From Escherichia coli (GTDB lineage Bacteria; Pseudomonadota; Gammaproteobacteria; Enterobacterales; Enterobacteriaceae): 64,000 bases of DNA. Position numbers: made by a program. The DNA is taken from NCBI RefSeq assembly GCF_046105845.1, contig NZ_CP151004.1. The stretch is one strand, 5' to 3'. Positions 15,001 to 18,000 of the stretch are shown here, in pieces (position 1 is the first letter of the stretch; every line of letters begins with the position of its first letter).

Positions 15001-18000
15001 AGTGATATTTTTGTGATGTTTTAGATGTGTAATAATGAACCAGGTTAAAGTGTATTTAAAAATGTGTTGTATTGGCGACTGAAATCTGCCCTTTAAAAGG
15101 GGGGATAGCACTGAGACAAAGAGGCATTGCTTCTCCGATAAAATGTCAGAGAAGCATGATTGCGTGGTGATTGTCGATTGATGACTTACTGACGGATCCG
15201 TCATCATTCTCAAAGCATTAGTTAAGTTATTTGTGATTTTTAAGGATTATCCTATCTATGATTTTCTACTCAGAAGGATAAGGCACTCACAATGCTCCTT
15301 ATAGTTTACTGCTGGCATCTATTTAAAATAGCATTTGAGTCAAATAGCCCATCAAGATAGCCATACCTAAGATAACCGTCAGGAATGCAGCTATCATCGG
15401 CATTCTGAACATTGATTTAAGTAATATCACTTCCGTCAGGCTTGCTCCGGCACTGCCGATGATTAATGCCATTAATGCTCCCAGCCCCATTCCTTTTGTC
15501 ATCAGAACAGATGCCAGAGGGATAACCGCCTCTGCCCGGATATACAGCGGAATTCCGACAACGGCGCTCAATGGGATGGCGAAGGGATTATCTGCCCCTG
15601 CATGAGCGGCAATCCACTCTGAGGGAATAAAGCCATAAATAAAAGAGCCTATTAATACCCCTAACAAAAGATATGGCAGTACATCTTTAAACTGTTGCAA
15701 CGCATCTTTGGTGGCTAGTTTTATGGGATTAATACTTACCACAGCTTTGGTACTGCAACAGTTTACTACAGGTTTCTCAATGGCTTTAGCCGCTGGACTA
15801 CAGCAACTCACTTTTATTGGCGTATATGTCGTCCCCGGCGAAGTTTTGGCTGGAGCACAACAATTTGCTGATGAGCTTTTACTGGCAATGATATGACGTT
15901 CAAATCCCAGGGAATCCAGGATAATACTGGCAAGTACGGAGACGCCGGCGGCGATAATCGCGTACAACAAGGTAACTTTCCAGCCAAAGGTCACCCACAT
16001 TAACCCGACGATAATGGGATTAAGTAATGGGGAAACAAATAAAAAAGTGAGGGTCGGACCAAACCCGGCTTTCGCTGATAACAATCCACGTAACATGGGG
16101 ATTGTCGAGCAACTACAGAACGGGGTAACGGCTCCCAACAGAGCAGCCAGGAGATAACCTCTCCCTTTTCTGGCCCCCATCATCTGCTGGATTTTATGGT
16201 CTGGCACCTTTTGTCTTATCAGGCTGACACCGGCACTAATCACTATAAACAGCAAAGAAAGCTCGACGGCGAGAAACACAAACATCTCTGCGGCATCTTG
16301 CAGCATCGCAAGCCAACTACTCATACGTAACCTCATTGAATAAATCTATATTTCCAGAATAATCGAAATGAAATTCAGATCAAGATATTTCTGGTATTAT
16401 CGAAATATCAACCAGACAAAGGGGGTGTCATATGCAGTTGGAAGAAGTTGCTAAAGCGCTGAAAGAGCTAGGTCACCCGACCCGTTTGTTCATATTCAAA
16501 CACCTGGTCAAAGCGGGGGAACAAGGTTTGCCGGTCGGTGAGTTGCAAAAGCAGCTTGGGATACCCGGCTCTACACTCAGTCACCATATTTCAGCACTGG
16601 TATCGGTAGGGCTGGTCAAACAAAACCGTGAGAGTCGGACGCTGATGTGTGTTTCGCAATACGCAATGCTGGAAGCGATAATTGAATTCTTACGCGAGGA
16701 GTGCTGCGTAAATAGCAAAATTGCCTGATGCGCTACGCGCTACAGATTTCATGCCATATATTGAATTTGCACGGTTTTGTAGGTCGGATAAGACGCGTTA
16801 GCGTCGCATCCGACATAAACGAAGCGCACTTTACCAACTATCGGCAGTGGATATCGCCGCTTTATTTCAGGCGTTTACCCGCTTCATCAACCACTTTCTC
16901 GCCATCTTCCTTGGTGAACGCGCCTTGTTGCGCATTTGGCAGAATTTCCAGCACCACTTCTGAAGGGCGGCACAGGCGAGTTCCCAGCGGCGTCACCACA
17001 ATCGGGCGATTAATCAGAATCGGGTGCTGAAGCATAAAGTCGATTAACTGATGGTCAGTAAATTTATCTTCTGCAAGGCCCAGTTCCTCATACGGCTCGA
17101 CGTTTTTACGCAGCAGCGCGCGTACGGAAATCCCCATATCGGCAATGAGTTTGACCAGCTCATCGCGCGTTGGCGGTGTTTCCAGATAATAGATAATGGT
17201 CGGTTCTGTACCGCTGTTGCGGATCATCTCCAGCGTGTTACGCGACGTGCCGCAGGCCGGGTTGTGATAAATGGTAATGTTGCTCATATCAATATCTCAT
17301 TACAAAGTGAAAGAGAGACGTAGCGCCAGCGCAGCCAGCGTCACAAAAAGCACCGGCAGGGTCATGATAATTCCTGTACGGAAGTAATATCCCCAGCTGA
17401 TAGTCATATTCTTCTGCGAAAGTACGTGCAGCCAGAGTAGCGTAGCCAGGCTACCAATTGGGGTAATTTTCGGTCCCAAATCGCAGCCAATCACGTTGGC
17501 ATAAATCATCGCTTCTTTGATAACGCCAGATGCCGTGCTGCCATCAATGGACAACGCGCCAACCAGTACCGTCGGCATATTGTTCATAATAGAAGAGAGG
17601 AAGGCGGTGAGGAATCCGGTGCCGAGCGTCGCGGCCCACAGGCCGTTTTCCGCCAGCACGTTGAGTACGCCAGAAAGATATTCCGTTAGTCCGGCATTGC
17701 GCAGGCCATAAACCACCAGATACATGCCGAGCGAGAAGATGACAATCTGCCAGGGCGCACCGCGTAGCACCTTACCCGTATTAATTGCATGACCGCGTTT
17801 AGCGACGGCAAATAATATCAGCGCGCCCACTGCCGCAATGGCGCTGACCGGAATGCCGAGCGGTTCCAGGACGAAAAATCCCACCAGCAGAAACAGTAAA
17901 ACAACCCAGCCAGTTTTGAAGGTTGCAGGATCTTTAATCGCTTCTGCGGGAGATTTCAGCAGCGCCATATCGTAGTTCTGCGGAATATCTTTGCGGAAAT

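What the first reader, a model, noticed from the sequence alone, without database searches (positions are those of the whole stretch)
16350..16406. Two tandem ATTTC-N10-GAAAT dyads in the regulator/permease divergent promoter
Two 20-bp elements with identical 5-bp inverted-repeat arms are spaced 37 bp apart between the divergent ArsR-like and ArsP-like genes. ArsR/SmtB repressors usually bind imperfect dyads overlapping their promoters, so these are candidate operators.
Basis: seen in the sequence. Interest (0 to 1): 0.4.

Follow-up and report, generated by a model that had tools for sequence, protein, structure and literature searches.

The report
Operator pair of an ArsR-like repressor
The two short inverted repeats between a small ArsR-family regulator gene and an ArsP-like efflux permease gene in this E. 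coli region are very probably the regulator's own binding sites, because the same motif sits at the same place next to this regulator in 80 bacterial species; it is an ordinary repressor-operator switch, but of a subfamily nobody seems to have characterised.

Summary
ATTTC-N10-GAAAT occurs twice, at 16350-16369 and 16387-16406, in the 107-bp gap between a PF03773 (ArsP_1) permease gene on the minus strand and a 98-aa ArsR/SmtB gene on the plus strand, next to arsRBC in an E. coli chromosome.

The interpretation as candidate operators is strongly supported by comparative genomics, though binding was not tested.
- In 80 of 82 homologous loci, a 26-bp motif tATATTTCtrnTAwTATCGAAATAt (invariant TTC-N10-GAA) lies about 40-57 bp, up to about 110 bp in a few loci, upstream of the regulator's start codon. 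These loci include Aeromonas, Vibrio, Photobacterium, Shewanella, Endozoicomonas, Pseudovibrio and delta-proteobacterial MAGs.
- Of 152 motif hits in 473 kb, 147 lie upstream of the regulator or the permease. None occurred in 248 kb of shuffled DNA.
- Loci with a divergent permease have 2-3 sites. All 30 loci without a permease have exactly one.

The predicted promoter elements fall inside the operators, so binding should block RNA polymerase in both directions.

The regulator is closest to AfArsR (6J05). It shares that protein's Cys-Cys pair but has a different third invariant cysteine (C73). Relatives sit next to arsH, arsD/A and arsB/C, so a trivalent (organo)arsenical inducer is likely but unproven.

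Verdict: a real feature and a new member of a known kind, of moderate interest.

The parts
16384..16409 (+). Proximal operator (O_R): GATATTTCTGGTATTATCGAAATATC.
   Evidence: PWM score 39.8 bits. It has perfect 8-bp arms. An equivalent site lies about 40-57 bp upstream of the regulator ATG in 80 of 82 loci, further in a few. It is nearly invariant in alignments A2 and A3.
16347..16372 (-). Distal operator (O_P), read toward the permease: TTCATTTCGATTATTCTGGAAATATA.
   Evidence: PWM score is 30.4 bits on the minus strand and 27.6 on the plus strand. A second site is present in all 40 loci with a divergent permease and in none of the 30 loci without one. TTC-N10-GAA is retained even in plasmid variants whose left arm reads TATTC or GTTTC.
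16392..16400 (+). Predicted extended -10 of the regulator promoter, TGgTATTAT (hexamer 16395-16400), inside the proximal operator. The predicted transcription start is about 16407.
   Evidence: Motif positions T12 (75/80), A13 (79/80) and T17 (79/80) are conserved although they break dyad symmetry. The position leaves a leader of about 25 nt containing the Shine-Dalgarno sequence GGGGG at 16421-16425. This is an inference; no transcription start data exist.
16378..16383 (-). Predicted -35 (TTGATC) of the permease promoter, abutting the proximal operator.
   Evidence: A TTGAyn hexamer directly abuts the proximal operator in nearly all compact divergent loci. This is an inference.
16356..16361 (-). 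Predicted -10 (TATTCT) of the permease promoter at the centre of the distal operator, 16 bp from the -35. The predicted transcription start is about 16349.
   Evidence: In 11 of 12 loci with 37-39 bp site spacing, the best -10 starts at operator position 12. In 13 of 14 loci with 48-50 bp spacing it starts at operator position 1. The 16-18 bp gap between -35 and -10 is therefore preserved in both classes. Plus-strand T60, A59 and A56 (hexamer positions 2, 3 and 6) are invariant in alignment A2 and A61 (hexamer position 1) is at least 90% conserved, while hexamer positions 4 and 5 vary. This is an inference.
16432..16728 (+). Gene for the 98-aa ArsR/SmtB-family regulator, the presumed repressor that binds both operators.
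   Evidence: Pfam HTH_20 and HTH_5 match, and NCBIfam HTH_metalloreg passes its cut-off. The AF2 model has pLDDT 93 with the canonical fold. The best solved relative is AfArsR 6J05 (E 3.7e-14, TM 0.89). C73, E90, C91 and C92 are invariant.
15323..16324 (-). Gene for the ArsP_1-family (PF03773) permease, 333 aa from the RefSeq start. The open reading frame extends to an upstream ATG at 16336.
   Evidence: Pfam ArsP_1 scores 180 bits. It falls below the cut-offs of the SO_0444 and SaoE equivalogs. The TPFCSCS motif is invariant in 49 of 49 orthologues. The RefSeq start comes; a GAGG lies 6 nt upstream of ATG 16324.

Best explanation
The two dyads are the operators of the adjacent 98-aa ArsR/SmtB-family repressor. 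Together they form a compact bidirectional switch.

Proposed mechanism:
1. A repressor homodimer binds each element of about 24-26 bp (core TTC-N10-GAA).
2. The proximal operator (16384-16409) contains the extended -10 element of the regulator's own promoter, which gives autoregulation. It also abuts the -35 of the permease promoter.
3. The distal operator (16347-16372) contains the -10 of the permease promoter.
4. Bound repressor therefore keeps RNA polymerase off both promoters.
5. Release follows when a thiophilic inducer binds the invariant cysteines. These are C73 at the end of strand beta2 and C91/C92 in the last turn of helix alpha5 of the other subunit. The inducer is most likely a trivalent arsenical, possibly an organoarsenical such as methylarsenite. 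The ArsP-like efflux permease is then expressed.

Shown here: the sequence anatomy, the conservation, the site-to-gene bookkeeping, and the family, fold and cysteine conservation. Inferred: protein-DNA binding, the exact promoters and transcription starts, repression rather than activation, the intersubunit cysteine site, and the inducer.
For: Observation and chance.

The motif follows the regulator.
- 80 of 82 loci carry a high-scoring site, typically 40-57 bp upstream of the regulator ATG, whatever the neighbouring genes.
- Of 152 hits at 14 bits or more in 473 kb, 147 are upstream of the regulator or the permease. Of the other five, two precede a distant permease homologue, two precede a glutathione synthetase, and one is unexplained. 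No hits occurred in 248 kb of shuffled DNA.
- The window holds no other site.

Architecture rule: the 40 divergent loci have 2 sites (27 loci) or 3 sites (13 loci). All 30 loci without a permease have exactly 1. When the permease lies downstream, it has its own pair of sites.

Phylogenetic footprint: invariant intergenic columns are confined to the dyads.

Promoter overlap: T12, A13 and T17 are conserved and directional. The -35/-10 geometry for the permease is conserved in both spacing classes.

Regulator: it belongs to the ArsR/SmtB family. The AF2 model places C73 in beta2 and C91/92 at the end of alpha5. The closest solved structure is the As(III) sensor AfArsR, and its As-binding Cys95/96 align with C91/92.

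Arsenic link: the pair lies beside arsRBC or arsRDABC in E. coli. ArsH (TIGR02690, 406 bits) lies directly downstream of the regulator in Hafnia and Pantoea. ArsD/ArsA or ArsA/ArsB/ArsC are adjacent in Aeromonas, Citrobacter, Buttiauxella and Endozoicomonas.

Literature: ArsRs are homodimeric repressors whose sites overlap their own promoters, and a two-Cys AfArsR-like variant (SpArsR) senses MAs(III) (PMC11868830; PMC13236881).
Against: - There are no binding, expression or transcription start data. All promoter assignments are consensus matches, and the simple promoter scan also lists other candidates.
- The centre-to-centre spacing of the two sites is not phase-conserved: 37-39 bp in some lineages and 48-52 bp in others. 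Cooperative binding is therefore not implied.
- The embedded -10 for the permease fits the Enterobacterales/Aeromonas class well, but the register differs in other lineages.
- The conserved central bases could be protein contacts rather than promoter elements.
- The inducer is uncertain. The third AfArsR ligand (Cys102) is absent. The closest named permease model is a Cu/Zn efflux family, although the match is far below its cut-off. In Vibrio the neighbours are SigZ, a GST, a MAPEG protein and a glutathione synthetase rather than ars genes.
Confidence: 0.85

Rival explanations
1. The sites are real operators of this regulator, but the signal is not arsenic. It would instead be another soft metal (Cd, Zn, Cu, Hg) or a thiol-reactive or redox stress. 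The permease would then export a metal or metal-thiolate rather than an organoarsenical.
For: The only named NCBIfam models hit by the permease are the SO_0444 Cu/Zn efflux family and SaoE. SO_0444 is needed under Zn and Cu stress (PMC3219624). In Vibrio and relatives the regulator is followed by SigZ, a GST, a MAPEG protein or a eukaryote-type glutathione synthetase, and L075 has two sites in front of the synthetase. Three-cysteine sites also bind Cd and Pb in CmtR-type ArsR proteins (established knowledge).
Against: Both permease hits are far below their cut-offs (109 against 300 bits; 86.5 against 325). The best sequence and structure match of the regulator is the As(III) sensor AfArsR, with its Cys pair aligned. 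There is repeated, independent linkage to arsH, arsD/A and arsB/C in at least six genera. The BigR and CmtR models score far below their cut-offs.
Confidence: 0.35
2. The dyads are bound by a different protein, for example the canonical ArsR encoded 2 kb away or a global regulator, and not by the adjacent 98-aa protein.
For: A canonical arsR lies nearby at 18644-18997. No binding experiment assigns the site to any protein.
Against: The motif accompanies this regulator gene in 80 loci, most of which have no canonical arsR or other ars genes. It persists as a single site when the regulator stands alone. No such site occurs anywhere else in the window, including upstream of arsRBC.
Confidence: 0.05
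3. The regulator binds the dyads but works as an activator or dual regulator, as HlyU-type ArsR proteins do, rather than as a simple repressor.
For: HlyU and NolR are among the structural relatives. The predicted -35 of the regulator promoter is poor.
Against: The operators overlap the predicted -10 and transcription start regions of both promoters. That position is typical of repression. The closest relatives (AfArsR; and SpArsR according to the literature) are repressors.
Confidence: 0.07
4. The two dyads are a chance feature of AT-rich promoter DNA, or the relic of a 37-bp tandem duplication. Alternatively, they act as RNA hairpins in the 5' leaders.
For: The region is 32% G+C, and one perfect 5-N10-5 dyad arises in 14% of shuffles. 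The two units form a 70%-identical 37-nt direct repeat.
Against: Two dyads with identical arms arose with P = 3e-4. The motif is conserved across genera while its flanks diverge. The RNA fold of 16340-16431 is no better than shuffles (z = -0.41). There is no Rfam match in the intergenic region. The predicted transcription starts lie at the outer edge of each dyad, so the dyads would be largely untranscribed.
Confidence: 0.02

Closest known systems
AfArsR of Acidithiobacillus ferrooxidans (Type 2 ArsR; PDB 6J05)
   Same: It is the best sequence match (E 3.7e-14) and the best structural match (TM 0.89, 30% identity). Both are winged-helix homodimeric repressors. The vicinal Cys pair at the C-terminal end of alpha5 (AfArsR Cys95/96) aligns with C91/C92 here.
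   Different: The third As(III) ligand, Cys102, has no counterpart: the tail after CC is short and not conserved. Instead, C73 in strand beta2 is invariant. The operator sequence of AfArsR could not be retrieved for comparison.
SpArsR of Shewanella putrefaciens 200 (MAs(III)-selective ArsR)
   Same: It is AfArsR-like, with only the Cys-Cys pair (Cys101/102) and no Cys102-type third ligand (PMC11868830, PMC13236881). As I recall the original abstract (not re-read), its orthologues control arsP and arsH. Here the same two gene types sit next to the regulator: a permease in 49 of 80 loci and arsH in Hafnia and Pantoea.
   Different: This family has an additional invariant cysteine (C73). That could restore three-coordinate binding. 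No direct sequence comparison with SpArsR was possible, so orthology is untested.
Classical ArsR/SmtB operator-promoter arrangements (R773/E. coli ArsR, SmtB, CzrA, CadC; ArArsR footprint)
   Same: They use imperfect dyads of about 20-30 bp that overlap the core promoter of the regulator's own operon. The repressor is released by ligand binding (PMC11868830; established knowledge).
   Different: The motif sequence tATATTTCtrnTAwTATCGAAATAt was not found in any searchable paper. Two operators serve two overlapping divergent promoters, and each operator apparently carries a -10 hexamer.
ArsP organoarsenical efflux permease (Campylobacter jejuni; TC 2.A.119) and the SO_0444 Cu/Zn efflux protein
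   Same: All share the Pfam family PF03773 and an invariant Cys-Ser-Cys motif (TPFCSCS) (bioRxiv 10.1101/2022.07.06.499078). ArsP exports MAs(III) and Rox(III) (PMC12607644).
   Different: This permease does not reach the equivalog cut-offs for SO_0444 or SaoE. It has a Cys-rich central loop with three CC pairs in E. coli, and that loop varies among orthologues. Its substrate is untested.

Membership tests
ArsR/SmtB family of winged-helix metalloregulators (regulator) | HTH_5/HTH_20 domain and the alpha1-alpha2-alpha3-alphaR-beta1-beta2-alpha5 fold | tested here: met
   Pfam HTH_20 scores 54.2 bits and HTH_5 29.9 bits. NCBIfam HTH_metalloreg scores 61.9 against a cut-off of 55. The AF2 model has pLDDT 93 with helices at 3-13, 16-31, 35-42, 46-58 and 77-94 and strands at 62-67 and 70-75. 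Foldseek hits are all ArsR/SmtB proteins.
ArsR/SmtB repressor-operator systems | A dyad-symmetric operator overlapping the promoter of the regulator's own transcription unit | tested here: met
   A conserved dyad lies typically 40-57 bp upstream of the ATG in 80 of 82 loci, and it includes the predicted -10. The promoter positions are predictions only.
ArsR/SmtB repressor-operator systems | Specific binding of the protein to the operator and ligand-induced release | not testable with these tools
   This needs EMSA or footprinting and reporter assays.
Type 2 (AfArsR-type) As(III) sensor | A vicinal Cys pair at the C-terminal end of alpha5 (Cys95/Cys96) | tested here: met
   C91/C92 align with the NCC of AfArsR. 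They are invariant in 20 of 20 aligned homologues.
Type 2 (AfArsR-type) As(III) sensor | A third ligand, Cys102, in the C-terminal tail | tested here: not met
   There is no conserved Cys after C92. The E. coli tail is VNSKIA.
SpArsR-type MAs(III)-selective repressor | Only the Cys-Cys pair is conserved, with no third ligand. The regulator is associated with arsP and arsH. | tested here: inconclusive
   The CC pair is present, and a permease or arsH lies adjacent. However, an extra invariant Cys (C73) exists.
Type 1 (R773/E. coli ArsR) As(III) sensor | The CVC-x2-C motif (Cys32/34/37) in alpha3 | tested here: not met
   The corresponding region reads TRLFIFKHLVKAG and has no cysteine. The canonical ArsR in the same window does have ELCVCDLC.
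BigR/SqrR persulfide sensors; CmtR; PagR; Rv2640c family | Reaching the NCBIfam equivalog cut-off | tested here: not met
   BigR scores 38.5 against 155, CmtR 19.9 against 150, PagR 31.7 against 170, and Rv2640c 46 against 155.
ArsP family permeases (Pfam PF03773 / TC 2.A.119) | A PF03773 domain over the full length and the conserved Cys-x-Cys motif | tested here: met
   ArsP_1 scores 180 bits against a cut-off of 32.3, covering residues 13-334. TPFCSCS is invariant in 49 of 49 orthologues.
ArsP family permeases (Pfam PF03773 / TC 2.A.119) | Efflux of trivalent organoarsenicals | not testable with these tools
   This needs resistance or transport assays.
SO_0444 Cu/Zn efflux and SaoE equivalogs | A score above the NCBIfam equivalog cut-off | tested here: not met
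   SO_0444 scores 109.2 against 300, and SaoE 86.5 against 325.

The most novel reading that the evidence does not exclude
The regulator may represent a further, undescribed type of arsenical or soft-metal sensing site in the ArsR family. The site would be intersubunit, formed by C73 (end of strand beta2, at the N-terminal end of alpha5) of one subunit and C91'/C92' (C-terminal end of alpha5) of the other. It would control an ArsP-like exporter. The module occurs in about 44% of complete E. coli genomes. It also occurs as an IS-flanked mobile cassette on hundreds of conjugative E. coli and Salmonella plasmids from livestock, some carrying tet(X) or qnrS1. There it could be co-selected by organoarsenical feed additives.
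Probability: 0.3. Interest if true: 0.55.

Novelty: new member of a known kind. Interest (0 to 1): 0.35.

Why it matters
It gives a precise, testable operator and promoter map for an uncharacterised ArsR-family switch. The switch is common in non-K-12 E. coli (2219-2373 of 5426 complete genomes), on at least 647 plasmids of Enterobacterales, and in many marine Gammaproteobacteria.

If the inducer is a trivalent (organo)arsenical, E. coli would have a second arsenic sensor and exporter next to arsRBC. That exporter is also mobile and travels with antibiotic-resistance plasmids from poultry and pigs.

The conserved 26-bp operator and the small repressor are also ready-made parts for a biosensor. 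Mechanistically, however, this is a conventional repressor-operator arrangement.

Tried and rejected
- RNA-structure reading: the fold of 16340-16431 is no better than shuffles (z = -0.41). Rfam gave only sub-threshold REP-like hits outside the intergenic region.
- Chance: rejected.
- Regulon search in the window: no further sites were found.
- Literature searches:
  - The RefSeq protein accessions gave 0 papers.
  - The exact 20-mers and motif cores gave only unrelated primer or vector hits.
  - Guessed O157 and CFT073 locus tags were wrong or uninformative.
  - A search for ArsP/ArsR operator papers found nothing on this pair.
- The original papers on SpArsR, AfArsR, ArsP and the arsRM operon (PMC5653410, PMC2859433, PMC4681449, PMC8881391) are not held. 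The known operators of AfArsR and SpArsR, and the SpArsR sequence, therefore could not be compared.
- Within-species variation in E. coli is too low to be informative: the intergenic region is 95-100% identical. The few chromosomal substitutions do all fall outside the 20-bp cores.
- A dimer model to measure the C73 to C91'/C92' distance was not attempted, because the structure tool returns no coordinates.
- The alternative promoter candidates from the consensus scan were not adopted, because they are not conserved in register across loci, unlike those.
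Full report
**Observation**

The window around 16350-16406 reads ...tctatATTTCCAGAATAATCGAAATgaaattcagatcaagatATTTCTGGTATTATCGAAATatc....
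- The pattern ATTTC-N10-GAAAT occurs exactly twice in the 64-kb window, at 16350-16369 and 16387-16406. Shuffles predict 0.11 occurrences.
- In composition-matched shuffles of the AT-rich 107-bp intergenic region, two such dyads with identical arms arise with P = 3e-4.
- The two elements are part of a 37-nt direct repeat that is 70% identical. The proximal element has perfect 8-bp arms, GATATTTC/GAAATATC.
A 98-aa ArsR/SmtB protein is encoded at 16432-16728 (+), and a PF03773 'ArsP_1' permease is encoded on the minus strand.
- RefSeq annotation starts the permease at the ATG at window 16324, which has a GAGG 6 nt upstream. The intergenic region is therefore 16325-16431.

**Where this is**

- The segment is E. 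coli chromosome, up to 99.4% identical to sequenced strains. The pair lies between arsC of arsRBC (or arsRDABC) and a hypothetical gene next to slp and dctR.
- The pair is present in 2219 of 5426 complete E. coli genomes. It is absent from the rest.
- A copy about 84% identical is plasmid-borne.

**Conservation test**

- I aligned 20 diverse homologues of the regulator and used them to fetch 80 loci from species-representative genomes. The loci came from Aeromonas, Citrobacter, Buttiauxella, Limnobaculum, Hafnia, Pantoea, Photobacterium, Vibrio, Enterovibrio, Aliivibrio, Shewanella, Endozoicomonas, Psychromonas, Colwellia, Pseudovibrio and delta-proteobacterial MAGs. The regulators are 59-91% identical to the query.
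- Upstream sequences show the same element in nearly every locus.
- An iteratively refined 26-nt weight matrix gives tATATTTCtrnTAwTATCGAAATAt. T6, T7, C8 and G19, A20, A21 are essentially invariant.
- 80 of 82 loci have a strong plus-oriented site whose left edge is typically 40-57 bp upstream of the regulator's start codon, and up to about 110 bp in a few loci.
- Vibrio versions reveal the fuller dyad ATTTCGA-N6-TCGAAAT. The E. coli left arms (ATTTCca, ATTTCtg) are degenerate versions of it.

*Specificity*
- In 473 kb of locus DNA there are 152 hits at 14 bits or more.
- 147 of them lie upstream of the regulator or the permease.
- Of the five others, two precede a distant PF03773 homologue, two precede a glutathione synthetase, and one is unexplained.
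- There were no hits in 248 kb of shuffled sequence.
- The 64-kb window has no other site. In particular, none lies at the arsRBC promoter.

*Site number follows gene architecture*
- The 40 loci with a divergent permease have two sites (27 loci) or three sites (13 loci, mostly Vibrio with a 224-bp spacer).
- All 30 loci with no nearby permease have exactly one site.
- When the permease is downstream or separate, it has its own pair of sites about 50 bp apart.

*Phylogenetic footprint*
- An alignment of 11 Enterobacterales and Aeromonas intergenic regions shows a textbook footprint. Every invariant column other than the start codon lies within or within 4 bp of the two dyads, while the flanks and the inter-site spacer have diverged.
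- Plasmid variants change the left arm of the distal site to TATTC or GTTTC but keep TTC-N10-GAA.

**Relation to promoters (inferred)**

*Regulator promoter*
- Within the proximal site, T12 (75/80), A13 (79/80) and T17 (79/80) are conserved although they break the dyad symmetry. Together they read TAwTAT, a -10 hexamer.
- In E. coli this is TGgTATTAT at 16392-16400, an extended -10.
- It predicts a transcription start near 16407 and a 25-nt leader containing the Shine-Dalgarno sequence GGGGG.

*Permease promoter*
- Reading toward the permease, a TTGAyn hexamer directly abuts the proximal operator in nearly all compact loci.
- The best -10 lies 16-18 bp further on, inside the distal operator. 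It starts at operator position 12 in 11 of 12 loci of the 37-39 bp spacing class. It starts at operator position 1 (TATATT or TATAAT) in 13 of 14 loci of the 48-50 bp class.
- The roughly 12-bp change in operator spacing is thus compensated by a shift of about 11 bp in where the -10 sits. I take this as support for the assignment.
- In E. coli the elements are -35 TTGATC (16383 to 16378), a 16-bp spacer and -10 TATTCT (16361 to 16356). The predicted start is near 16349, again with a 25-nt leader.
- In alignment A2, hexamer positions 2, 3 and 6 are invariant and position 1 is at least 90% conserved, while positions 4 and 5 vary.

*Consequence and caveats*
- Each operator would therefore cover roughly -20 to -1 of one promoter. 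The proximal operator would also touch the -35 of the other promoter.
- These are consensus-based predictions. The generic scan lists other candidates, and no transcription start data exist.
- The inter-site spacing is not phase-conserved, so I do not infer cooperativity.

**The regulator**

- It is a bona fide ArsR/SmtB protein. A confident AF2 model (pLDDT 93) shows the canonical fold.
- M1, H15, H51, H52, C73, E90, C91 and C92 are among the invariant residues.
- The best solved relative by sequence (E 3.7e-14) and by structure (TM 0.89) is AfArsR (6J05). Its As(III)-binding Cys95/Cys96 align exactly with C91/C92.
- The third AfArsR ligand, Cys102, is missing. Instead, C73 at the end of beta2 is invariant.
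- In one subunit, C73 and C91/92 are at opposite ends of the 18-residue alpha5. A joint site would therefore have to be intersubunit, across the antiparallel alpha5-alpha5' dimer interface, like the alpha5 metal sites of SmtB and CzrA. This follows from established family architecture and was not tested.
- The Type 1 CVC-x2-C motif is absent. The BigR, CmtR, PagR and Rv2640c equivalogs are not reached.
- The literature held here describes several ArsR sensor types (PMC11868830; PMC13236881):
  - Types 1-3.
  - SpArsR, which is MAs(III)-selective and has the Cys pair only.
  - ArArsR, which uses Cys41/80/82.
  - None has the beta2-Cys plus alpha5-CC combination seen here.

**What the switch controls, and the likely signal**

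*The permease*
- It belongs to PF03773, with an invariant TPFCSCS motif in 49 of 49 orthologues. It also has a variable Cys-rich loop, which carries three CC pairs in E. coli.
- It is below the equivalog cut-offs for SO_0444 (Cu/Zn efflux; PMC3219624) and SaoE.
- ArsP proteins of this family export MAs(III) and Rox(III) (PMC12607644).

*Neighbourhoods of the regulator family*
- A permease is present in 49 of 80 loci.
- ArsH (TIGR02690, 406 bits) lies directly downstream in Hafnia and Pantoea, with arsC and arsB adjacent in Pantoea.
- A second ArsR plus ArsD and ArsA are present in Aeromonas.
- arsC, arsB and arsA are present in Citrobacter, and arsB and arsC in Buttiauxella.
- The order arsA-permease-regulator occurs in Endozoicomonas.
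- In Vibrionaceae the neighbours are SigZ (15 loci), MAPEG (6), a GST with a C-terminal CC tail (5) and a eukaryote-type glutathione synthetase (6).

I conclude that a trivalent arsenical, perhaps an organoarsenical, is the most likely inducer in the Enterobacterales version. A different soft-metal or thiol-stress signal is a serious rival (about 0.35).

**Rivals for the dyads themselves**

- Chance or a duplication relic is excluded by the conservation data.
- RNA hairpins are excluded by z = -0.41, the absence of any Rfam match, and the predicted starts at the outer edge of each dyad.
- Binding by another protein, such as the canonical ArsR, is unlikely. The site follows this regulator in loci without any ars genes.
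- Activation rather than repression is unlikely, given the overlap with the -10 regions.

**Novelty and verdict**

- I found no paper on this gene pair, its accessions or this motif. The library lacks most subscription papers, so prior description cannot be excluded.
- Mechanistically this is a conventional ArsR/SmtB autoregulated repressor-operator switch. It belongs to an uncharacterised, widespread subfamily with its own operator motif and an unusual cysteine triad.
- Confidence that the dyads are the operators of the adjacent regulator is about 0.85. Confidence in an arsenical inducer is about 0.45.
- Interest is 0.35. It would be higher (about 0.55) if the cysteine triad proves to be a new arsenical-sensing site and the plasmid-borne cassette confers organoarsenical resistance.

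Noticed in passing
L001 5397-6862; L085 2860-4422; PLSDB hits H27-H37: A copy of the permease/regulator pair about 84% identical to the chromosomal one, with its two operators, is mobile. It is found on 647 PLSDB plasmids (Escherichia 400, Salmonella 186, Klebsiella 32; 457 conjugative) and at 365 plasmid places in complete E. coli genomes. It is often flanked by IS26 or IS1 and lies next to tet(X), estT, qnrS1 or TEM-1. Many isolates come from chicken or pig sources. Co-selection by organoarsenical feed additives is a speculation that was not tested.
   Followed up: partly
window 16740-16830: A REP-like palindromic element lies between the regulator's stop codon and arsC. It gives sub-threshold Rfam hits to naRNA4/CssrE and ES036 (E 0.01-0.15, below the gathering scores).
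   Followed up: no
window 13519-14742 (-): A 407-aa ORF lies between the permease and slp/dctR. It has no Pfam or NCBIfam match and is annotated 'hypothetical protein' in RefSeq.
   Followed up: no
L056 3270-4050 and L076 3270-4052: In Hafnia psychrotolerans and Pantoea septica the orthologous regulator, with a single operator upstream, is followed directly on the same strand by arsH (TIGR02690, 406 bits). arsC and arsB are also nearby, adjacent in Pantoea.
   Followed up: partly
L021-L041, L052, L055, L068, L073 (Vibrio and relatives), about 3250-3900: In 15 Vibrionaceae loci the regulator gene is followed immediately by an ECF sigma factor. It passes the SigZ equivalog and has a Cys-rich C-terminal tail (GCC...C...C..C). 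A GST ending in CC, a MAPEG protein and a YitT-family membrane protein are often nearby. This suggests a wider thiol or metal stress regulon in those species.
   Followed up: partly
L075 3455-3530, upstream of the ORF at 3584: Two operator-like sites 50 bp apart precede a eukaryote-type glutathione synthetase gene (PF03917/PF03199) downstream of the regulator in a Moritella MAG. The same synthetase family is adjacent in five other loci.
   Followed up: no
L006 3384-3750; L009 and L010 equivalents: Aeromonas loci carry a second, 33-35% identical ArsR-family paralogue immediately downstream of the regulator. It is followed by arsD and arsA in L006 and L010.
   Followed up: no
window 16324 vs 16336: The mechanical ORF for the permease starts at ATG 16336 (MRLRMSSW...). 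RefSeq uses the ATG at 16324 (MSSW...), which has a GAGG 6 nt upstream. The later start fits the predicted transcription start near 16349 better.
   Followed up: partly
compact divergent loci (L003-L012 vs L015, L019, L034, L043-L046, L053, L057, L058, L065, L069, L071, L079): There are two discrete operator-spacing classes: 37-39 bp in Enterobacterales and Aeromonas, and 48-50 bp in Photobacterium, Shewanella, Enterovibrio and others. The predicted permease -10 moves from the centre to the edge of the distal operator between the classes, so the -35/-10 spacing stays at 16-18 bp.
   Followed up: yes
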